Positions 51,440 to 59,902 of a DNA stretch of 64,000 nt are shown here, one piece after another (position 1 is the stretch's first letter; each line of letters starts with the position of its first letter). Position numbers and translations under genes: made by a program. A model generated the notes under the pieces. That model made no database searches. It was not told where the DNA came from and worked only from the letters and a program-made list of their open reading frames with translations. The stretch is from IMG/VR virus record IMGVR_UViG_3300020020_000001, positions 1 to 64,000 of that record, one strand, 5' to 3'. Source of the stretch: a virus.

Positions 51440-53089
51440 TTAGATCCGTCCTGCACTAAAGTTTGCAATGAGTGACGGTAGGTTGGCGTCGCCACCACAC
51501 ACGTCAAGCATACCACGATCCGACGGGTCGGCAATGGTGAAATCTGTGGCGGTAAGTCCAACAACAACCAACTTGGCGTCAATGCCTGTCTTCTGTCGAT
51601 ATGTACGAAGTGCCTGGAATGGGTGTGGACGACCTGCGTACGTTTCGCTGTCTGTAATGACAACGAACGTGTCTACCGCAATGTTGTTTCGTTCAGCAAA
51701 CAACATTGGTAGTGAGCAGTCTGTTGACATGAATGGCCGAGAGACGCGCTTCATCACATCGTTCAGATCCATACTTGCAGTTAGACCTAGATCGACAAAC
51801 TGGCTACCAAACCCATAAACCTGGTAGTACGGCTCAGTGCGCATGATAGTCATGGCCATAGCTGCACCAACCTGCGCGCAGTTAAGGTCAATACCCATCG
51901 CTGGTGAACCCATTGAACCGGACACATCAAGGGCGAGCATTGTGCGCTTGTTCGCTGGTTCTACATACTTGAATGCCTTGTAGAAACCTTCGTTCAGCGC
52001 CGCAACAATTACTGGATTGGTGTTCCAGTCCTTGACTCGCTGAGTTGTGTAACTATAACCGGGTGGAGGTATGTCGCCAGGCTTCTTTGAACGCCAAATC
52101 TGACCGTTCTCGTGAACTGTCAGTGCAAGAAGGTACTGGATCGGGTGTAGCTTGGTACGTGCAATCATGCTTTCAGTTGTGAGTGCTGTTGCTACCTCAC
52201 GAGTGAATACCATGTCATTGAACGCACCAATACGAGCTAGCCGCGTGATGTTACGGACAAGCGCCTGACCCTTAAGCTGACCGTTATAGAACAGCTTCTT
52301 CCATACTTCAGCATTCTTAAGAAACTGCGTAGGTAGTGCTTCCCATGGTAGGAGTGGATGATCATTCAGAACATTTAGTACCGTCTGCACATTTTCCGCA
52401 CCGGAAACACGATCGAATCCAATAAGAATATCCGACCGCTCTTCAACAGATGCCATGTTAGGTAGAGGCTTGCCAAGGATAAAGCTACCGACACTCTTGT
52501 CAATACCCACAGGGTGTGACAAGCGGAACATGTCACGGTGGGTCCAACCATCACGCTGACGATACTTCACAGCCTGGTATGCAACCTGGTCTGGTGTCTT
52601 ACGCTCATACCAGCTTGCCACCGCAGCACGCTTTGATCGACCCCAACCACCAAGTAGCTCGATGTACTGAGTAAACTGGAACAGGTGTGTCGAAATGCGA
52701 ACTACCTTGGCAAAGGCGTCCTTGTTCTTACGCTTGCCGTAAGTGAACAGCGCAGCCATCACGAAGATAGCAGTGTTGTTACGGTAGGCGCGTCCACTTT
52801 CCGAAATCTCTGTTACTACCTGCTCGACTAATTCCTCATCGCGTCCGATCATCTCAATGACGAAGTTGATGTTCTCCTTGGTGAGCGGCTTCTCCTGTAC
52901 GTAGTAGGTACCCTTGTCAGTACCAAGAATCAGGAAACGCTCTAGCCGTGTGCGATCTGAGACCTGGAAGACAAATCCACCAGCGTTGTTGACAACCTGG
53001 TCTGGACGTGCCTGCACTGTCTGTGGGGTATCCTGAATTTCCATCAGTGCTTCGGTGATGGCGTCACGGTTCTTATCTGGCTTAGACAT
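51440..53089 (-). CDS. rsr: Ro60/TROVE-domain RNA-binding protein (Rsr ortholog)
   Basis: NNAGG..F....RL.RFLILGT.KGTYY, GGWGR, KYRQRDGWTHRD, ALVRN, vWA MIDAS DVSGSM, ITDSET, IADP.D.GMLD. Confidence 0.95.
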   Translation of the reverse strand: MSKPDKNRDAITEALMEIQDTPQTVQARPDQVVNNAGGFVFQVSDRTRLERFLILGTDKGTYYVQEKPLTKENINFVIEMIGRDEELVEQVVTEISESGRAYRNNTAIFVMAALFTYGKRKNKDAFAKVVRISTHLFQFTQYIELLGGWGRSKRAAVASWYERKTPDQVAYQAVKYRQRDGWTHRDMFRLSHPVGIDKSVGSFILGKPLPNMASVEERSDILIGFDRVSGAENVQTVLNVLNDHPLLPWEALPTQFLKNAEVWKKLFYNGQLKGQALVRNITRLARIGAFNDMVFTREVATALTTESMIARTKLHPIQYLLALTVHENGQIWRSKKPGDIPPPGYSYTTQRVKDWNTNPVIVAALNEGFYKAFKYVEPANKRTMLALDVSGSMGSPAMGIDLNCAQVGAAMAMTIMRTEPYYQVYGFGSQFVDLGLTASMDLNDVMKRVSRPFMSTDCSLPMLFAERNNIAVDTFVVITDSETYAGRPHPFQALRTYRQKTGIDAKLVVVGLTATDFTIADPSDRGMLDVCGGDANLPSLIANFSAGRI

Positions 53090-53355
53090 TTCGACCCCTT
53101 TCAAAGGGATATGTTACTGTCAGTTTGATGAGATTTTTGATTGATTTCCATAGTTCTTGGCATCTTATGGTAAGTACAGATGCTATGATCATCCAACGTG
53201 GGCAGCTAACGATGAATTGTAACATCTCACCTTGTAAGTGCATACATCTGGTACACCAATCGCCATCAATATCTTCGTCGCAAGGCTGTCCATCGTGGGA
53301 TAAGTCAATTGCTTTCATGAGTTGTTGTGCTTCATAGTGGAAATTTCTCGTCACG

Positions 53356-53440
53356 CAGAGGGTGTAGGATTTGAACCCACGGTGGTGTTACCCACTTCTG
53401 TTTTCAAGACAGATGCCTTAAGCCTCTCGGCCAACCCTCC
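53356..53440 (-). tRNA. tRNA-Ser(TGA)
   Basis: Cloverleaf with long variable arm. Confidence 0.9.
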
Positions 53441-53733
53441 TAAATAGCTAATCTGTAACTTTTCTTATGTCACCCTTATGCTGGATCATTTGTATTGGAT
53501 GTATAATCCACATTGAGACTCGAACCATAAAGAGAATATAGTTTGGTGTCTCATTGTATACTTCTTCGAACTTTTCTTCTAGATTTTTACAGCGCACGCA
53601 ATCTTTTGAGTTATCACAATCTTCAGCATGTCTATTCAATGCTTCGTTTACATGTTCTATTTTTCTTAATAAGAAAACAAGATCCATTTTAACTCTCCAA
53701 AGGTTGTCGGATATGGTTATGTCATCGTGTCGA

Positions 53734-53803
53734 TTCGCAGGGAAGGACTCCAACCCTCATAACTGTCACGCAGACATTGCACTAGCCGTTGTGCTACCTG
53801 GGA
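53734..53803 (-). tRNA. Atypical/degenerate tRNA-like element (possible GCG anticodon)
   Basis: Acceptor TCCCAGG/CCTGCGA, D-arm GCAC/GTGC, T-loop TTGGAGT; short anticodon arm. Confidence 0.45.
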
Positions 53804-54338
53804 TAAACGATGTACTTCGACCCGACTACTCTTGTAAGTTTTTGTAACTATGGAGTTACTGGAGGAACTGTTGGCTCTGGCGATTCGGCTTCTACATCTG
53901 CGTCTAGTGCTTCGATGTTTGCATTTGCTGTTGCTAGGTTGTCTGCTACACCCTGAAGTGCCTCTTCAGCAGCCGCAGTGTCACCCTGAGCTAGTAGACG
54001 CTGAACGTCCTTTACTAGTTCAGCAGTGTTGGTGAGGAGAGTACCCACACCAGTCACAACCGCGCTTACCTTATCGTCGAGAGCCGACACTTTTGCCTCC
54101 ATCGCAGTAATGGCCGAAGCCAATTCCTGTGCATACTCAAGATGAACATGCACTTCCGTTACTGTGGGTGGAAGTCCTGACAAGTTTAGGTTCAAACTAA
54201 TGTCAGCCATCCATTTTCCCTTCTATCAAAGGGTTGGTTGGATATATTTAAGGTAGTCAGAAGTGGTTCTAATTCACTAGCCTTGCGGCTTTTGCAGTGT
54301 ATAGATAACTGACTACTTTCGACCCAACCAAAAACTAT

Positions 54339-55127
54339 CTATACGTATCTTCGAGCTGCCATGAATGCGTATAGGTTGTTCTGGATCACGCCTGTACGAG
54401 AGCTAGCCGCTTCAACAACTCTATTGTTACCAATGTAAATCATCACGTGTCCATTGTATGGCCAAACGATATCACCAGGCTGTAGGTTAGCTTTCGATAC
54501 CGCGTATCCTTGACCAGAGTATAGAATGCTCTGATCCTGATGTGGTACTGAAACGCCAACCTGACGAAGGGCTGCCTGCACTAGTCCTGAACAGTCATAG
54601 GCATTAGGTCCACCGGCAGCCCATACATAAGGCTTGCCAACCTGTGCTAGAGCAAAGTTCACAATCGTTTGTGCTCTGCTTGACTGTGGGGCTGGCGCTG
54701 CGCCACCACTACGTGATGCTACCGGCGGTTGTGCACGAACCGGTGCGCTACCCTGTGGGGCTGCGCTAGGCACCTTTACTTGCTGACCTACCTGAATGCT
54801 ATCACAGTTGGCAATTCCATTTGTCTGGCATAGACCTGGCCAGTATCCGGGAGTGCCGTAGAACGCCTGACTGATATTCGAAAGACTACCGTACTGTGAA
54901 GGATAGGCAGTAACTGAAACCAACGAGTCGCTTGCAACTACTACTGTTGCTGACGTCTTGGTCACTTCACTGTTCGTCGTCTTAACTACGTTTGCAGTCC
55001 CCAACTGCACAACTTGCGGTGCCTGTGGGCTACTCAGTGCTGCGTTAGCAACACCAGTTGGCGTAGCCAAGATTCCTAGGGTGATTAGGCCACACATCAT
55101 GGTAGCGACTAATCGGCTTCTGTTCAT
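54339..55127 (-). CDS. Secreted LysM + NlpC/P60 peptidoglycan hydrolase
   Basis: Signal peptide; LysM-like SL..I...FYG....W..L...NGI.N...IQVGQ; GKPYVW...GPNAYDCSGL, GHV.IY. Confidence 0.9.
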   Translation of the reverse strand: MNRSRLVATMMCGLITLGILATPTGVANAALSSPQAPQVVQLGTANVVKTTNSEVTKTSATVVVASDSLVSVTAYPSQYGSLSNISQAFYGTPGYWPGLCQTNGIANCDSIQVGQQVKVPSAAPQGSAPVRAQPPVASRSGGAAPAPQSSRAQTIVNFALAQVGKPYVWAAGGPNAYDCSGLVQAALRQVGVSVPHQDQSILYSGQGYAVSKANLQPGDIVWPYNGHVMIYIGNNRVVEAASSRTGVIQNNLYAFMAARRYV

Positions 55128-55374
55128 TCTCATCCTTTTTCGCATGCAAAGGCGAAGCTGTGCATTGGAATAGGTTGGAAGATGATCGCCTTTGCTCCAA
55201 ATGGAATATTCTATTGTGCGAAAACCCTCAGCCCTTGGTTTTCTTGGAGGCCCTCAACGGTTTGGCTGCCTCTCCAACACCTCATACGGTTTCAGTGTCC
55301 AACTCCCGTACAAAACGCATATCGCTGCACATAGAACGGGGGTAATATATGCGAGGGACACCATGCGTAAAACG

Positions 55375-55446
55375 TCGTTCCACTAGGAATCGAACCTAGG
55401 TCCCACCAGTTTCAGTGGTATGCTCTGCCAACTGAGCTATAGAACG
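55375..55446 (-). tRNA. tRNA-Phe(GAA)
   Basis: Cloverleaf. Confidence 0.88.
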
Positions 55447-55567
55447 TTGACCTACGGATCATCTTGATGTTTCCAACATCTGAATTGGTAAGTCATACCT
55501 CTAAAGCACCATTTGTGATAGCACATAGCATATAGTGGATAATACTTTGTTAACCATTTCTTAATCA

Positions 55568-55642
55568 TGGGTGGCTGGTGGAATTCGAATCCACGAATGA
55601 CTAGGTTCACAACCTAGCTCCTGATGCCTCCGGATCAGCCAC
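55568..55642 (-). tRNA. tRNA-His(GTG)
   Basis: CTAGG-TT GTG AA-CCTAG arm, T-arm, CCA. Confidence 0.8.
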
Positions 55643-55650
55643 ACTTTATA

Positions 55651-56022
55651 CTAAGCTAGTTTCATCTCCCATGACGACGTGGTGTCATTGAATGGCCAGA
55701 AGTTATTATCTGTATCGCCACCATTCCACACCGTGATGGTACCACCCCAACAACCGGCCTCTGAGTAGAAGAGTACCTTGTAGCTTGGTGTCTTGTTGAT
55801 CGCCGAAGAGATCACGTCATTCCAACCACCAGGCATACCTTGACAGTTGTTCAGTCCAACCCATGGTAGTGTCCACTGGGAACCGTTACCATTCGAGTCT
55901 GTATAGGCACAGATATGTGATGCTGGACATGAGGAGTAGGCTGCATGAGCAGGAGAAGCTGCAATGCCAATCATGATTGCAAACATCACGAGTACAGCAC
56001 CAACACGCTTAGTTGTTCTCAT
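55651..56022 (-). CDS. Secreted peptidase inhibitor I36 / beta-gamma-crystallin-like protein
   Basis: Signal peptide ending SPAHA; CP....C.Y.D.N..G, WNDVISS..N, NDTTSS. Confidence 0.75.
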   Translation of the reverse strand: MRTTKRVGAVLVMFAIMIGIAASPAHAAYSSCPASHICAYTDSNGNGSQWTLPWVGLNNCQGMPGGWNDVISSAINKTPSYKVLFYSEAGCWGGTITVWNGGDTDNNFWPFNDTTSSWEMKLA

Positions 56023-56047
56023 TTGTGTCCTTTCGTAGTTTGTTACG

Positions 56048-56128
56048 TACCTATGACAGGATTCGAACCTGCAAGCCTTTCGGCACTAGGACCTAAACCT
56101 AGCGTGTATCCCGTTCCACCACATAGGC
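56048..56128 (-). tRNA. tRNA-Leu(TAG)
   Basis: Cloverleaf with long variable arm. Confidence 0.9.
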
Positions 56129-56265
56129 ATAATGTAGTAAGGTACTGCACGAACACCATTCGTAACAGTTAGTCAGCCTCACCTAGTTAGTATACACTTC
56201 ACTAGGCAGTATTGGGACCCCTGTGGGGAAGCACGCTCAACTCTCTTTCGAGAGACCTTACTACG

Positions 56266-56350
56266 CAGAAGATGTAGGATTCGAACCTACGAAGGTATTA
56301 CCCTTACTTCCTTAGCAGGGAAGCCCGATCAACCACTCTGGCAATCTTCC
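56266..56350 (-). tRNA. tRNA-Ser(GCT)
   Basis: Cloverleaf with long variable arm. Confidence 0.9.
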
Positions 56351-56444
56351 ATAGTAGTCGGTAGGCGACCCCCAAGAGTGTTAGCCGCACTCTTGCACCT
56401 ACCGACCGTGTCCTACCAACCATCGTGCGCACCCTGGAGATGCG

Positions 56445-56515
56445 AACCGACAGTGAGTTTCGAACTCACTCAATCATCTTGGAAGGATGATATGCAACCA
56501 ATACATCATGTCGGC
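56445..56515 (-). tRNA. tRNA-Gly(TCC)
   Basis: Cloverleaf. Confidence 0.85.
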
Positions 56516-56518
56516 AAG

Positions 56519-56629
56519 TGATGTGGATATGTTGTTAGAAATCGGGGTATGTCTACCAAGACGACACGGAATTGAACCGCACTGTTCTAAATATCAGTTA
56601 GATAACCGATTTCAATCCGACCCACATCA
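56519..56629 (-). ncRNA. Y RNA-like element 1
   Basis: Terminal stem TGATGTGG/CCACATCA, GGGTCGG, GGTTATC, T-loop GGTTCAATTCC, ATATCC. Confidence 0.8.
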
Positions 56630-56633
56630 ACGC

Positions 56634-56819
56634 TTATACGTCAAACTCTCCAGCTTTTACACCTTCAATAAAGGTGCGCCACTCAGCAATGGTGAATACA
56701 TTGTACTGATCTGGCTTGTCACTATTGCGAATTGCGACACTCGTGTCACCAAGAGAAGCTTCAACACAGTTTGCGGTATCGCATCTGCCAGATTTAATCC
56801 AGTATAACTGGTCAGTCAT
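56634..56819 (-). CDS. DUF397 protein
   Basis: WIKS..C....CVE, VAIRNS..P....F...EW..F..GVKAGEF. Confidence 0.9.
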   Translation of the reverse strand: MTDQLYWIKSGRCDTANCVEASLGDTSVAIRNSDKPDQYNVFTIAEWRTFIEGVKAGEFDV

Positions 56820-56838
56820 TGTCTATTACGCTTCCAAT

Positions 56839-57930
56839 CTAAGCATTGACCGTGCTCAGGTTGCTATCTAGGTAGTTGCCAGACCAGTCAATGCCTGAGT
56901 GGTTACAAGCATCGGTGAGTCCATAAGCAGCGGAGTAATCGTGACCAGCCTTAGCAGGTACAAACCGGTTTTTACGTACAACAAAACCAATACCTTGCTC
57001 TGGACAGTACACGGTGTAAGCACCGCCACCAAAGAAATTGTTCTCAACCAGCCACATGTTATTTGCGGTTGGGTTTGTGATGATGGCTGACGTCATTGGA
57101 TTCAGTTGTAACATTGTGTTGTGTCGAATAACAACGTTGTTACCACCCTGTGACTGAATACCATCACCATGTGGAGCATTGCCGCGACCTTGTTCAGAAC
57201 CTCGAATGAATGACTCAGTGATTTGTGAGTTGCTGTTCATTTCCAACCCGTTCTCACACTTGTCAATATACATACGAGTGGCGCGGAAGTTCGGTCCAGC
57301 AAGTGCATTACCATGTGCGTAGTTACACGTAATTTCCGTGTCGCTAATTGTAGCTACGCCAGTTGCGGGTACTCTATCCGTGTTGATACCGTGGTAGCAA
57401 GAGTCTGACACTAGCAGCTTCACGTTGCGAATAACTACATTCGCCGCGAAGATGTAGATACAACCATTGTGTTCCCGGTTTTCTAGTACAGTACCAGCTA
57501 CTGTTATATTGATAACACCACTCGAACTGGTAAGCACTGTTCCAGTTGGGACACCAGTGTTCACGGCCGTTGGATACCCACAGGCACCAGGATTCGACCA
57601 ACAATTGGTCGGTGTTGGACTAGGTGTTGTTACAGTAGGCGAAGGAGTAGGACTAACTGTCTGACTCGCTGACGCTGACGGGCTTCCTGTGGGTGTGGTC
57701 AGAAGTGCAATGATTGCATTCTGATCATTGATACAGTTGACGGCCCGTGTCCGTTGCGAACTACTTGTTGTATTACTCGCAAGTAGTTGACAGTTTGCCT
57801 TAGCATCCTCTGCTAACTGTAACCGGCTCGATACGGACGATGGCGCAGCGCTAGCTAGCGACGACCAACCGAGCATAATGATTACTGCACCACCAATTAC
57901 TGATGCAGCAACCTTACTATTCCGGTGCAT
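56839..57930 (-). CDS. Secreted right-handed beta-helix protein
   Basis: Signal peptide, Pro/Thr/Ser linker, P...NTGVP.GT.L, HGDGIQ, IRHNT, ENN.F.GG.YT. Confidence 0.75.
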   Translation of the reverse strand: MHRNSKVAASVIGGAVIIMLGWSSLASAAPSSVSSRLQLAEDAKANCQLLASNTTSSSQRTRAVNCINDQNAIIALLTTPTGSPSASASQTVSPTPSPTVTTPSPTPTNCWSNPGACGYPTAVNTGVPTGTVLTSSSGVINITVAGTVLENREHNGCIYIFAANVVIRNVKLLVSDSCYHGINTDRVPATGVATISDTEITCNYAHGNALAGPNFRATRMYIDKCENGLEMNSNSQITESFIRGSEQGRGNAPHGDGIQSQGGNNVVIRHNTMLQLNPMTSAIITNPTANNMWLVENNFFGGGAYTVYCPEQGIGFVVRKNRFVPAKAGHDYSAAYGLTDACNHSGIDWSGNYLDSNLSTVNA

Positions 57931-57983
57931 CCATACTCCTTAACTCGAAAACATTGGAGTAATGTCTGAACCCCGTACAATAT

Positions 57984-58057
57984 TGGCATGAGTTGTAGGA
58001 TTTGAACCCACACAAAAGACTTTGGAGGCCTTTATGCTACCGTTACATCAAACTCAC
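57984..58057 (-). tRNA. tRNA-Trp(CCA)
   Basis: Cloverleaf with CCA end; U11-A24. Confidence 0.88.
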
Positions 58058-58138
58058 TAGGTGTGACCACAGCTCAGACACTATGGCCACACTTGGTTAC
58101 CTATTTCTCCGCCCGCTAGAGCTAGAAAGAAGGAACCG

Positions 58139-58210
58139 CACCCTCAGCAGGATTCGAACCTGCACTTATAGCTTCGTAGGCTATTACTCTGTCCGTTGAG
58201 TTATAAGGGT
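58139..58210 (-). tRNA. tRNA-Arg(ACG)
   Basis: Cloverleaf. Confidence 0.9.
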
Positions 58211-58486
58211 TTATGTGGTGGGCTTCTCATTAACTGTGCTTCCCCACAGGGGTTACCTCGCATGGCGAACCTACACCCGCCCACCACTCAAGTGTACGGC
58301 ATGGTTGGTAACTAGTCACTGAGACATTTATGGTCCCTCCCAAGATTTACGTCGGGGGAGGGATTCCGACGTTTCCACTAATGGCCTGAGGAGACTATAT
58401 CATGGAAACTTAAGTACGTAGTGACTGGGCAGTACTGTGTGCATCCCGGCAACATAGTGCAGCAACCACTACGCACGACTATGAAA

Positions 58487-58577
58487 GCTTTGGATATGCT
58501 TAACTGAATCGAATTGTCAGCGCTGCAATGCGCCGTCCTGTGAATGGGTGGATAACCGATTCATTCCGACCCAAAGC
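58487..58577 (-). ncRNA. Y RNA-like element 2 (no tRNA-like domain)
   Basis: GCTTTGG/CCAAAGC stem, GGGTCGG, GGTTATC, ATATCC. Confidence 0.78.
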
Positions 58578-58609
58578 CCCGGTGCCGTTGGCCTCCGGCA
58601 GAAAATAGA

Positions 58610-58750
58610 TTCGGATATGTATTTGTAATTGGAAATGGCTTGCGCCAAGGCAATTGCTCTACCAATTGAGCTATACGACGATAAATCGTCGCAGTAGGAC
58701 TCGAACCTACAACCCATTGCTTCCAGATAACCAACTACGGCCGACCCGAA
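58610..58750 (-). ncRNA. YrlA-type Y RNA (element 3) with permuted tRNA domain
   Basis: GGGTCGG...GGTTATC, then T-arm GTAGGTTCGAGTCCTAC, closed acceptor hairpin TGCGACGA/TCGTCGTA, D-arm TAGCTCAATTGGTAGAGC, then ATATCC. Confidence 0.9.
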
Positions 58751-58838
58751 CCTGAAACTTGAATGCGTATCTCGTCCTCCACTATACGCTTACCACACCC
58801 ATAACGGCACGTGTGGCATCCACTTTTTCATAGCTAAG

Positions 58839-58912
58839 ACACGGATATATACCACTAGACAAGGAGTTTTATCTCCAAATGATAGGATAACCCTTGTCAA
58901 TCCGACCCGTGT
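58839..58912 (-). ncRNA. Y RNA-like element 4 (minimal, 74 nt)
   Basis: ACACGG/CCGTGT stem, GGGTCGG, GACAAGG/CCTTGTC, GGTTATC, ATATCC. Confidence 0.78.
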
Positions 58913-58947
58913 TTGACGTCAGCCCTCTGTCTGACAATGATGTAGTA

Positions 58948-59086
58948 TCGTGGATATGTATTGAGATCGGGAGTTTCACCTATTACTAGGCTAGCCGGTA
59001 CCGTCCGGCGTATGGTGTTGGTCCGTGTCGCGGAGCACCATGGTGGAATTGAACCATCGATAACCGATTACTCTGCCGACCCACGA
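58948..59086 (-). ncRNA. Y RNA-like element 5
   Basis: TCGTGG/CCACGA stem, GGGTCGG, GGTTATC, T-loop GGTTCAATTCC, ATATCC. Confidence 0.8.
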
Positions 59087-59451
59087 ATTAAATCTAGTAG
59101 TCCTGGAAATGTCTCACCCAAATTGTACGCTAGGTGATCATTACCGCCAGAATCTCTTACCGTTCTTGATACTGCCTTTGGCAGTTGATGTTTCAGGTTG
59201 TTACAAGTTCCATGTGCTAACTGCACGTTTGCGTCGTCACGAGCTTCATCAAGTGTGCACAGTGCGAAGTCTTTTATGTGGTCGCGGGACCAATCTTCTC
59301 TTTTAACTGGCTGAAAGCACAGTTGACAGATTCCGCGATCTCTTACATAAATTCGTTCGAGTTGTGCTCTTTTATTTTTTGTTTCGTTGCGACGTCTTCG
59401 TGCTTCGTGATTCATGTTGACCCAGTCTGGCTTTTGATGTGCTTTACTCAA
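59068..59451 (-). CDS. HNH endonuclease
   Basis: RD.GICQLC, SRDHI, NVQLAH..CN..K. Confidence 0.85.
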   Translation of the reverse strand: MSKAHQKPDWVNMNHEARRRRNETKNKRAQLERIYVRDRGICQLCFQPVKREDWSRDHIKDFALCTLDEARDDANVQLAHGTCNNLKHQLPKAVSRTVRDSGGNDHLAYNLGETFPGLLDLIRGSAE

Positions 59452-59742
59452 TGGGCATCATCTCTCTTTATTGTTATTGCTACTCTTCTTCCATCACCAC
59501 TGCATGTTGTGAATGCGCCCTCTTTAAAAACACATTCTCATGTTGGGTGGCAGTGGCTTCACAATGGAACCTTTAGTAGCCATCGTCACGTCTTTTTGGC
59601 ACCCGGCAACTAGGTCATTGTTGGCAGCTAATCGCCGGGGCACACCAAAATTTTTTGCGTTATGCGATTTTAGTGTCTAATTTCTGACACTGTAATAGTC
59701 CGGTTAGACCGTAGTCTCTGTGGCGGGACCATACCCACATAG

Positions 59743-59814
59743 TAGCGCAGTCGGGAGTTGAACCCGAATCTTCAGGGTTATGAGCCCTGCGTGTTACCTT
59801 TACACCACCGCGCG
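59743..59814 (-). tRNA. tRNA-fMet(CAT)
   Basis: C1:U72 mismatch, GGG/CCC anticodon stem. Confidence 0.88.
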
Positions 59815-59830
59815 ATGTTATTATATTACG

Positions 59831-59902
59831 TACACCCACAGGGATTCGAACCCCGAACCTATGCCTTGTAAGGACACCGCTCTCCCGTTGAGCTATAGGT
59901 GC
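59831..59902 (-). tRNA. tRNA-Val(TAC)
   Basis: Cloverleaf. Confidence 0.88.

What the first reader, a model, noticed from the sequence alone, without database searches (positions are those of the whole stretch)
51440..59086. Phage Ro60 with five diversified Y RNAs sharing one stem scaffold but different effector domains
Seen: a full TROVE+vWA Ro60 gene and, co-oriented upstream, five elements (56519-56629, 58487-58577, 58610-58750, 58839-58912, 58948-59086). All share GGGTCGG...GGTTATC...ATATCC, while the terminal and inner stems differ in sequence yet stay paired (TGATGTGG/CCACATCA, GCTTTGG/CCAAAGC, TTCGG/CCGAA, ACACGG/CCGTGT, TCGTGG/CCACGA). The inserted domain varies: a full permuted tRNA mimic (T arm, closed acceptor, D arm) in copy 3, a T-loop plus other hairpins in copies 1 and 5, and short non-tRNA loops in copies 2 and 4. 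Established: bacterial Rsr binds Y RNAs, YrlA RNAs mimic tRNA, Y RNA can tether Rsr to PNPase, and some actinophages encode Ro60/Y RNA. Inference: an expanded modular RNP set in which one Ro60 carries interchangeable RNA adaptors to recruit or decoy different host nucleases or defence proteins. No RtcB gene is visible in this window.
Basis: partly seen in the sequence, partly recalled or inferred. Interest (0 to 1): 0.82.

Follow-up and report, generated by a model that had tools for sequence, protein, structure and literature searches.

The report
Phage Ro60 with seven Y RNAs
A soil phage carries a Ro60 RNA-binding protein gene preceded by seven (not five) small Y-RNA genes; they share one Ro60-docking stem but carry different outer modules, and related phages carry similar multi-copy sets that published work at hand does not describe.

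Summary
The window is part of a complete 80-kb soil phage. It encodes a full Ro60 (TROVE+vWA). Seven co-oriented Y-RNA-like elements lie 0.6-6 kb upstream, among 22 tRNA genes. Two more sit at 54235-54330 and 53704-53828; the second holds a normal-order tRNA-like domain.

All seven share a terminal stem, a helix with a bulged pyrimidine, a second stem and UUAUC. A covariance model finds exactly these seven in the genome. In 80 other phage Ro60 loci it finds 258 elements. All 258 are on the Ro60 strand and 253 are upstream, with 0-11 per locus (mean 3.1). Covariation is strong: 92% of cells paired against 66% when shuffled. Actinobacterial rsr loci carry the same scaffold at lower copy number (mean 1.7, maximum 5).

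These are therefore YrlA/YrlB-type Y RNAs, and the window sits at the high end of a phage-wide expansion. The Ro60 mRNA leader also carries a permuted copy of the docking helix over its ribosome-binding site. That hairpin recurs in 27 of 80 phage loci against 4.5 expected, which suggests autoregulation.

Expression, Ro60 binding and partner recruitment are untested. Other first-stage notes on this same genome had already listed the seven copies, the nested tRNA, UUAUC and the leader hairpin. I checked each here.

The parts
51440..53089 (-). Ro60 (Rsr-like) gene, 549 aa from ATG 53089. The mechanical ORF call starts at TTG 53104.
   Evidence: Pfam TROVE and vWA_Ro60. Full-length phmmer matches to 2NVO, 1YVP and 9NEN. 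The MIDAS DVSGSM motif is invariant across 7 phage Ro60s. Start context shown.
53088..53125 (-). Ro60 mRNA leader hairpin, a permuted copy of the Y-RNA docking helix (ACAUAUCC-CUUUGAAAG-GGGUCGAA-AUG). The Shine-Dalgarno sequence lies in the 3' arm and the AUG follows directly. Candidate autoregulatory Ro60 site.
   Evidence: Sequence. CATATCC and GGGTCGR both occur here outside the Y elements. The same hairpin with clade-specific compensating sequences lies upstream of Ro60 in relatives. A strict descriptor is found in 27 of 80 phage loci against 0.056 per 180 nt elsewhere. It is not enriched in bacterial loci.
53704..53828 (-). Y7: Y scaffold enclosing a normal-order tRNA-like domain (4-bp acceptor-like stem, D arm, short anticodon-like hairpin, degenerate T arm). 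ARAGORN calls the insert tRNA-Arg(gcg) at 53734-53803.
   Evidence: R1 hit at E 0.01 when not in the seed. R2 43.7 bits. ARAGORN, but no Rfam tRNA call. Fold and sequence. Same type at the same position in L012 and L014, where the insert passes Rfam tRNA at 44 and 56 bits.
54235..54330 (-). Y6: short Y RNA-like element (GGGUCGAAAG variant, AGUUAUC) whose insert is a hairpin with a GCAA loop.
   Evidence: (78.9 bits, in the seed).
56520..56628 (-). Y1: Y RNA-like element with a T-arm-containing insert. Its 3' end lies 4 nt from tRNA-Gly (56444-56515).
   Evidence: tRNA position.
58487..58577 (-). Y2: short Y RNA-like element with a non-tRNA hairpin insert.
58608..58752 (-). Y3: YrlA-type Y RNA (T arm, closed acceptor-like hairpin, D arm).
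   Evidence: Rfam YrlA 40 bits, E 1e-6, full model. R1 hit at E 6e-5 when not in the seed. Insert conserved in L006, L012 and L014 (z 13, 11 and 6.6).
58838..58913 (-). Y4: shortest Y RNA-like element, with an insert of about 20 nt.
   Evidence: R1 hit at E 0.0024 when not in the seed..
58947..59087 (-). Y5: long Y RNA-like element with a T-arm-like hairpin, a long closed hairpin, a D-like hairpin and one further hairpin.
   Evidence: R1 hit at E 0.026 when not in the seed.. Insert related to L006 6878 and L014 3162 (z about 5).
53355..59902 (-). Co-oriented tRNA genes interleaved with the Y elements (Ser, Phe, His, Leu, Ser, Gly, Trp, Arg, Met, Val). Probably one processing unit.
   Evidence: ARAGORN and Rfam tRNA. 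In relatives 43 of 258 elements have a tRNA starting within 5 nt of their 3' end, and 132 of 258 have a tRNA or another Y element within 30 nt.

Best explanation
The phage makes its own Ro60 ribonucleoprotein family: one Ro60 protein and seven paralogous Y RNAs.

Shown here:
- The seven elements share a covarying scaffold. It has a terminal stem running into a helix with one bulged pyrimidine (GG-GU[C]G paired with U-AU-CC), an asymmetric internal loop, a second stem, and UUAUC at its top.
- The scaffold is the same one found next to Ro60/rsr genes in hundreds of phage and actinobacterial loci, always on the Ro60 strand.
- It contains the GNCGA(A/G) motif that Chen et al. 2014 tie to Rsr binding.

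Inferred:
- The RNAs are cut out of long tRNA/Y-RNA transcripts by tRNA-processing nucleases. Many lie 0-5 nt from a tRNA.
- Ro60 docks on the bulged helix of each RNA.
- The variable module then decides what the particle touches. The modules are a YrlA-type permuted tRNA mimic in Y3, a normal-order tRNA-like domain in Y7, T-arm modules in Y1 and Y5, and short hairpins in Y2, Y4 and Y6.
- The tRNA-like modules would tether Ro60 to host tRNA-binding or RNA-degrading enzymes such as PNPase, as in the RYPER complex. The short RNAs would gate or occupy Ro60.
- A permuted copy of the docking helix over the Shine-Dalgarno sequence and AUG of the Ro60 mRNA would let free Ro60 repress its own translation, so that protein level follows Y RNA supply.
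For: - Protein: Ro60 identity is clear.
- Count: model R1, seeded with 3 window and 4 L006 copies, recovered the other four window copies. Model R2 finds exactly seven in 80 kb on both strands.
- Covariation: on 129 sequences from other phage contigs (two of these loci are the Gilson and Bmoc records that also contributed to the model), 92.0% of cells are paired against 65.8% when shuffled. 17 of 18 pairs show double changes. Slid controls give 33-43%. The same holds on A4 and A5.
- Docking helix: it is 100% paired, with U-A swapped for C-G between clades and a bulged pyrimidine. Frequent G-U pairs fit only the Ro60-sense RNA strand.
- Linkage to Ro60: 258 of 258 hits are co-oriented, 253 are upstream, and the median distance is 768 nt.
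- Same scaffold in bacterial rsr loci: 134 of 137 co-oriented.
- Y3 matches Rfam YrlA at E 1e-6.
- Processing: Y1 lies 4 nt from tRNA-Gly, and the packing statistics support tight tRNA/Y arrays. In Gilson three elements exactly fill a tRNA-tRNA gap.
- Literature: Rsr binds Y RNAs encoded within about 2-4 kb on the same strand; the GNCGAAN0-1G motif; Yrn2-tRNA-Yrn1 polycistron; RNase P cleavage of M. smegmatis YrlA (PMC4201824). A phage Ro60 binds two Yrl RNAs and host PNPase (PMC12135203).
- Leader hairpin.
Against: - There is no expression or binding evidence for this phage.
- No element reaches an Rfam gathering score. Only Y3 gives a sub-threshold hit, and the rest give nothing at E up to 10.
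- Y1-Y5 have GUCGGA rather than the published GNCGAA.
- Most variable inserts (Y1, Y2, Y4, Y6) cannot be aligned with those of relatives. Module-specific function therefore rests on structure and persistence, not on sequence conservation.
- The alignments used for pair counts were fitted to the model, which biases them towards the structure.
- No partner protein is encoded nearby and RtcB is absent.
- The leader hairpin lies inside the 3' end of a small upstream ORF. It is not enriched in bacterial loci.
Confidence: 0.8

Rival explanations
1. The elements are cis-acting Ro60 binding or processing sites embedded in long phage transcripts. They would punctuate or stabilise neighbouring tRNA and mRNA segments, or control adjacent genes, and would not be stable free-standing Y RNAs.
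For: A docking-helix copy clearly exists inside an mRNA, the Ro60 leader. Y6 and Y7 sit directly upstream of ORFs. No promoter or terminator signal above background delimits the elements.
Against: The paired 5' and 3' ends and the tight abutment to tRNAs (0-5 nt) fit excised RNAs. Homologous bacterial elements are known stable Rsr-bound RNAs (PMC4201824). Most elements are not next to an ORF start.
Confidence: 0.1
2. The tRNA-like members (Y3, Y7, Y1, Y5) act mainly as decoys or sponges for host tRNA-targeting nucleases or tRNA-modifying enzymes. Ro60 would serve only to stabilise them, not to be tethered to an effector.
For: The phage invests in 22 tRNAs. About half of all elements carry a T-loop (134 of 258). 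The nested tRNA-like domains of Y7-type elements carry different anticodon-like loops in three relatives: gcg, att and gaa.
Against: Short hairpin members without any tRNA feature are equally persistent. Only 2 of 92 elements under 90 nt have a T-loop. Nothing here bears on defence systems. Known tRNA-like Y RNAs tether PNPase (PMC4201824, PMC12135203).
Confidence: 0.07
3. The elements are a repeated selfish or DNA-level element (a MITE-like repeat or a recombination site) that happens to sit in the tRNA region.
For: Multiple copies cluster in a region that also holds an HNH endonuclease gene.
Against: Copies differ throughout except for the structural motif, and stems are kept by compensatory change. 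G-U pairs make the structure strand-specific. The orientation link to Ro60 is absolute (258 of 258) across very divergent phages. There are no terminal inverted repeats or target duplications.
Confidence: 0.02

Closest known systems
Bacterial YrlA/YrlB Y RNAs (S. Typhimurium, M. smegmatis; Chen et al. 2014, PMC4201824; Rfam RF02553)
   Same: Encoded just upstream of Ro60/rsr on the same strand. A 5' GNCGA(A/G) motif sits in a stem formed by the 5' and 3' ends. One member has a permuted tRNA-like domain (T arm, closed acceptor, D arm) and others are plain hairpins. The same scaffold model hits actinobacterial rsr loci.
   Different: There are seven members here against the two described per bacterium. 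The bacterial loci surveyed here average 1.7 and reach 5. No element reaches the Rfam gathering score. Y1-Y5 use GUCGGA. UUAUC is not part of the Rfam YrlA consensus.
D. radiodurans Yrn1/Yrn2 and the RYPER complex (Rsr-Y RNA-PNPase)
   Same: Several Y RNAs lie upstream of rsr and are co-transcribed with a tRNA. Chen et al. describe Yrn1's T and D arms as oriented differently from YrlA. Y7, with its normal tRNA order, is the member here that departs from the YrlA order.
   Different: Whether Y7's topology equals that of Yrn1 was not compared directly. PNPase tethering is untested here. The genes are phage-borne, and RtcB or other repair genes are absent.
Thermus phage phiLo Ro60 with Yrl1 and Yrl2 (PMC12135203)
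   Same: A phage Ro60 with more than one Y-like RNA upstream. Binding to Ro60 and to host PNPase was shown in vitro.
   Different: Two RNAs against seven. phiLo's RNAs were defined by a CGAA motif in a bulge, with no tRNA-like modules reported. No leader mimic was described.
YrlA-like RNAs of mycobacteriophages (22 phages in Chen et al. 2014)
   Same: Actinophage Ro60 with a YrlA-type RNA.
   Different: That search used a YrlA model, which targets the tRNA-like type. With the scaffold model Bxz1 shows three elements in the gap directly upstream of its Ro gene, plus one far away. The window's phage has seven.
Animal Y RNAs and nematode sbRNAs (Kowalski and Krude 2015, PMC4726728)
   Same: Multi-member families on one Ro60. 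The lower-stem helix has a single bulged pyrimidine as the Ro site. A UUAUC motif follows the upper stem. The loop modules are variable.
   Different: No Rfam Y_RNA hit at E up to 10. No Pol III features. tRNA-like modules are present. Homology as against convergence is unresolved.
Autoregulation by molecular mimicry in mRNA leaders (for example ribosomal-protein operators and the thrS operator that mimics tRNA-Thr; from general knowledge)
   Same: A copy of the protein's RNA target placed over the ribosome-binding site of its own mRNA.
   Different: This has not been described for Ro60 in the literature I could search. The function here is inferred from sequence and conservation only.

Membership tests
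Ro60/Rsr (TROVE) protein | TROVE (HEAT-repeat ring) domain followed by a vWA domain | tested here: met
   Pfam PF05731 E 2.7e-35 and PF25045 E 1.9e-60. Alignment over residues 25-553 to 2NVO and 28-551 to 1YVP.
Ro60/Rsr (TROVE) protein | Intact MIDAS motif (DxSxS) in the vWA domain | tested here: met
   D388 V389 S390 G391 S392 M393 are invariant across seven phage Ro60s.
Bacterial Y RNA (YrlA/YrlB class) | Encoded within a few kb of Ro60 on the same strand | tested here: met
   All seven lie 0.6-6 kb upstream on the - strand. In relatives 258 of 258 are co-oriented.
Bacterial Y RNA (YrlA/YrlB class) | GNCGAAN0-1G motif near the 5' end | tested here: met
   Y6 (GUCGAAAG) and Y7 (GUCGAAG) match exactly. 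Y1-Y5 have the one-base variant GUCGGA. In the survey GGGTCGA and GGGTCGG are equally common.
Bacterial Y RNA (YrlA/YrlB class) | 5' and 3' ends pair into a stem that carries the Ro site | tested here: met
   Covariation.
Bacterial Y RNA (YrlA/YrlB class) | At least one member with a tRNA-like domain | tested here: met
   The Y3 alignment to RF02553 shows T arm, acceptor-like hairpin and D arm. Y7's insert is called a tRNA by ARAGORN.
Bacterial Y RNA (YrlA/YrlB class) | Score at or above the Rfam RF02553 gathering threshold (69 bits) | tested here: not met
   Y3 scores 40 bits. The other six give no hit at E up to 10 or at gathering. The relatives' YrlA-type copies also score only 31-42 bits.
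Bacterial Y RNA (YrlA/YrlB class) | Expressed as a discrete small RNA, bound and stabilised by Ro60 | not testable with these tools
   No RNA holder is listed for this DNA.
Animal Y RNA / nematode sbRNA | Lower-stem helix with a single bulged C as the Ro60 site | tested here: met
   A bulged pyrimidine (C in the window) is flanked by pairs that are 100% conserved as pairs. The feature is as described in PMC4726728.
Animal Y RNA / nematode sbRNA | UUAUC motif in the loop next to the upper stem | tested here: met
   All seven window copies have it. So do 215 of 258 phage and 88 of 137 bacterial copies.
Animal Y RNA / nematode sbRNA | Match to Rfam Y_RNA (RF00019) or sbRNA models | tested here: not met
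   No such hit at E up to 10 in 56300-59300, nor at gathering over the whole window.

The most novel reading that the evidence does not exclude
Phages of actinobacteria have expanded the Ro60 system into a modular adaptor platform. It would comprise up to 11 Y RNAs per genome, including tRNA mimics in both permuted and normal order. All would dock on one Ro60 through an ancient bulged-helix/UUAUC scaffold shared with animal Y and sbRNAs. The Ro60 level would be set by a Y-stem mimic in its own mRNA leader. The different modules would direct the particle to different host RNA enzymes or defence nucleases during infection.
Probability: 0.3. Interest if true: 0.85.

Novelty: new variant of a known kind. 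Interest (0 to 1): 0.62.

Why it matters
What bacterial and viral Y RNAs do beyond tethering PNPase is still largely open. Only one or two Y RNAs per prokaryote or phage have been studied.

A scaffold model that finds 2-11 co-oriented Y RNAs in most phage Ro60 loci gives the field a catalogue of natural module swaps on a constant Ro60-docking stem. Several of these phages are cultivable and genetically tractable (Streptomyces phages Gilson and Bmoc, mycobacteriophage Bxz1), so the idea that one Ro60 uses many adaptors becomes directly testable.

The leader hairpin, if functional, would be the first described feedback loop that couples Ro60 synthesis to Y RNA supply.

The shared bulged helix and UUAUC also bear on whether bacterial and animal Y RNAs are homologous.

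On the practical side, these elements are unannotated in GenBank phage records, and at least one is miscalled as a tRNA.

Tried and rejected
- Rfam at gathering thresholds found only tRNAs. At E up to 10 only Y3 matched YrlA.
- Megablast against phage records gave only short hits inside the Ro60 gene. A single-protein locus search gave one relative. An alignment-based search was needed.
- My first regex scanner had a wrong UUAUC pattern and missed the known copies. It was corrected.
- MAFFT on the five full elements misaligned the 3' halves. A seed of seven medium-length copies was used instead.
- Expression: no RNA holder is listed for this DNA, and read laying was not used.
- Promoter and terminator scans were no better than shuffles.
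- Pfam and PHROG searches of neighbouring ORFs found no RNA-processing partner. RtcB is absent from the genome.
- The inserts of Y1, Y2, Y4 and Y6 could not be matched to those of relatives.
- The leader-hairpin descriptor is not enriched in bacterial rsr loci.
- The Chen 2014 supplements and the 2020 Annual Review on bacterial Ro60 are not held. I therefore could not check whether multiple Y RNAs per phage were tabulated there.
- The DNA-repeat or mobile-element reading was rejected on covariation, strand-specific G-U pairs and the absolute orientation link to Ro60.

Full report
**What the window is.** The window is the first 64 kb of a complete 80,170-bp IMG/VR virus record with direct terminal repeats. 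The record is found in soil metagenomes. Between 42 and 60 kb everything runs on the - strand. ARAGORN tRNAs there and Rfam.

**The protein.** The ORF ending at 51440 is a complete Ro60.
- It has Pfam TROVE and vWA_Ro60 domains.
- It aligns end to end with the solved D. radiodurans Rsr and with Xenopus and human Ro60 at E about 1e-91.
- Its MIDAS motif is intact.
- The likely start is ATG 53089.
- Its nearest relatives are the annotated 'Ro-like RNA binding proteins' of Streptomyces phages at 50-57% identity, followed by Gordonia, Mycobacterium and Microbacterium phages.

**Checking the observation.** They have the stated motifs and compensating terminal stems. The GGTCGG...GTTATC pattern occurs 5 times against 0.07 expected. 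It occurs nowhere else in the genome. Copy 3 aligns over the whole Rfam YrlA model, with T arm, closed acceptor-like hairpin and D arm. It scores only 40 bits against a gathering score of 69, and the others match nothing in Rfam.

**Two more copies.** A pairing-aware scan found two further copies with slightly different motifs.
- 54235-54330 has GGGUCGAAAG...AGUUAUC.
- 53704-53828 has GGGUCGAAG...GUUUAUC.

I built covariance model R1 from three window copies and four copies from a relative. It recovered the four unseeded window copies at E 6e-5 to 0.026. The refined model R2 finds exactly seven hits in the 80-kb genome, all on the - strand and all 0.6-6 kb upstream of Ro60.

**Anatomy of the scaffold.** Every copy has these parts in order:
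- a variable terminal stem of 5-9 bp;
- a conserved helix, 5'-GG-G-U-[C]-G paired with 3'-CC-U-A-U, in which the C is bulged;
- an asymmetric internal loop;
- a second variable stem of about 8 bp;
- UUAUC;
- an insert of 15-90 nt;
- the return strands, ending in ...ACAUAUCC plus the terminal stem.

**Evidence for the structure.** On 22 copies from four phages, 93.9% of cells are paired against 64.7% after shuffling and 29-51% when partners are slid. All 15 pairs show double changes. The three pairs across the 'motif' are paired in 22 of 22 copies. Between clades U-A becomes C-G and G-U becomes A-U.

On 129 copies from other IMG/VR phage contigs the figures are 92.0% against 65.8%, with 17 of 18 pairs showing double changes. 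These alignments were fitted to the model, which favours the structure. The margin is nevertheless very large. The many G-U pairs mean the structure exists only in RNA of the Ro60 sense.

A helix with a single bulged pyrimidine matches how the animal Ro60 site is described. UUAUC next to the upper stem is also a conserved feature of animal Y RNAs and nematode sbRNAs (PMC4726728). The GNCGA(A/G) core is the motif that Chen et al. link to Rsr binding (PMC4201824).

**Linkage to Ro60 in other phages.** An alignment of seven phage Ro60s retrieved 80 IMG/VR loci, out of at least 407 contigs that encode relatives. R2 finds 258 elements in them.
- All 258 are on the Ro60 strand. 253 are upstream, at a median of 768 nt.
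- 72 of 80 loci have at least one and 63 have at least two.
- Counts run from 0 to 11. Seven loci have seven or more.
- The window's closest relatives have 7 (L012), 8 (L014) and 8 (G001).
- Gilson has 7, Bxz1 has 4, A3Wally has 4 and Bmoc has 3. None is annotated in GenBank.

**The same scaffold in bacteria.** It also sits upstream of bacterial rsr genes, mostly in Actinomycetota. There are 137 hits in 80 loci and 134 are co-oriented. The mean is 1.7 and the maximum 5, against a phage mean of 3.1 within the same distance. The elements therefore belong to the actinobacterial YrlA/YrlB-type Y RNA family, and phages carry expanded sets.

**The variable modules.**
- Y3 is YrlA-type. Its insert is conserved in relatives (z 13, 11 and 6.6).
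- Y7 holds a tRNA-like domain in normal order, joined to the scaffold through a 4-bp acceptor-like stem. ARAGORN calls it tRNA-Arg(gcg) but Rfam does not, and its T loop is degenerate.
- The same type occupies the same position, just upstream of Ro60, in L012 and L014. There the insert passes the Rfam tRNA threshold. Its anticodon-like loops differ: att and gaa.
- Y1 and Y5 carry T-arm hairpins with further hairpins.
- Y2, Y4 and Y6 are short and have no tRNA features.
- In the survey 132 of 166 elements of 90 nt or more have a T-loop motif, against 2 of 92 shorter ones. Long tRNA-like and short hairpin classes therefore coexist generally, as Chen et al. found for YrlA and YrlB.

**Processing (inferred).** Y1 ends 4 nt before tRNA-Gly. 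In relatives 43 of 258 elements have a tRNA starting within 5 nt of their 3' end, and about half have a tRNA or another Y element within 30 nt on each side. In Gilson three elements exactly fill the gap between tRNA-Ile and tRNA-Ser. This fits release by RNase P and the 3'-end tRNA nucleases, as reported for the D. radiodurans Yrn2-tRNA-Yrn1 precursor (PMC4201824).

**The Ro60 leader.** I followed a lead from another first-stage note (e1-6100171). Directly before the Ro60 AUG the RNA reads ACAUAUCC-CUUUGAAAG-GGGUCGAA-AUG. This is the docking helix in permuted order, closed by a 3-nt loop, with the Shine-Dalgarno sequence in its 3' arm.

Relatives carry the same hairpin, with arm sequences that differ but stay paired. 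Examples are AUAUGCCC/GGGCCGAA in Gilson-like phages, CAUGUUUCC/GGAGACUAA in G001, GCUCGAA/UUCGAGC-CGG, and AUUCAAU/AUUGAGU-CGA. A strict descriptor (AU, hairpin of at least 5 bp, then Y-G-R) is present within 180 nt upstream of Ro60 in 27 of 80 phage loci. About 4.5 would be expected from its density elsewhere. Bacterial loci show no enrichment.

The simplest reading is that free Ro60 represses its own translation. The caveat is that in the window the hairpin lies in the 3' end of a small upstream ORF.

**What remains unknown.** I could obtain no expression, binding or partner data. No RNA run holds this DNA. No nuclease, ligase or RtcB is encoded nearby or anywhere in the genome. The idea that the modules recruit or decoy different host factors is therefore an inference from known Ro60 biology: PNPase tethering in D. 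radiodurans and Salmonella, and phiLo Ro60-Yrl-PNPase in vitro (PMC12135203).

**Novelty.** Phage Ro60 with YrlA-like RNAs is published (22 phages in PMC4201824; two Yrl RNAs in phiLo). Multiple Y RNAs per organism are also known. In the searchable literature I found none of the following:
- arrays of 7-11 Y RNAs;
- a scaffold-based description that captures the non-tRNA members;
- the normal-order nested tRNA member in phages;
- the leader mimic.

I rate this a new variant of a known kind. It is well supported structurally and comparatively, and functionally untested.

Noticed in passing
window 53734-53803 (-): ARAGORN's tRNA-Arg(gcg) is the insert of Y7 and not a free-standing tRNA gene. Rfam's tRNA model does not call it. 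The phage's real tRNA count in the window is therefore 22.
   Followed up: yes
window 53082-53354 (-): A small ORF ends at TAA 53082 and overlaps the Ro60 start (ATG 53089) by 8 nt. Its last codons encode the leader hairpin. This could mean translational coupling or a spurious ORF. It has no Pfam or PHROG match.
   Followed up: partly
L043 6232-9924 (IMGVR_UViG_2974665086_000001, 139 kb): Eleven Y-like elements lie upstream of one Ro60 gene, the largest array seen.
   Followed up: no
L022 1974-2188: Two tRNAs with anticodon CTA (amber suppressors, labelled tRNA-Pyl by ARAGORN) sit next to a seven-member Y array. This may point to TAG recoding in that phage.
   Followed up: no
L092 (CAINGU010000031.1, filed as a cyanobacterial MAG): Its Ro60 is 54% identical to the window's, and four low-GC Y elements lie directly upstream. 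It looks like a phage contig binned into a MAG.
   Followed up: no
Gilson NC_048742.1 96654-96741; Bxz1 NC_004687.1 96723-96833: One extra scaffold hit in each phage lies 26-33 kb away from the Ro60 gene, on the same strand.
   Followed up: no
L157 3997-4116, L162 4396-4525, L151 3135-3268 (bacterial loci): These are the only three of 395 scaffold hits on the strand opposite Ro60. All are in Promicromonospora or other actinobacterial chromosomes, 1.5-3 kb upstream.
   Followed up: no
window 54339-55145 and 55651-56022 (-): An NlpC/P60 peptidase-domain gene (tail-lysin-like by PHROGs) and a gene with a peptidase-inhibitor I36 domain sit inside the tRNA/Y-RNA array.
   Followed up: partly
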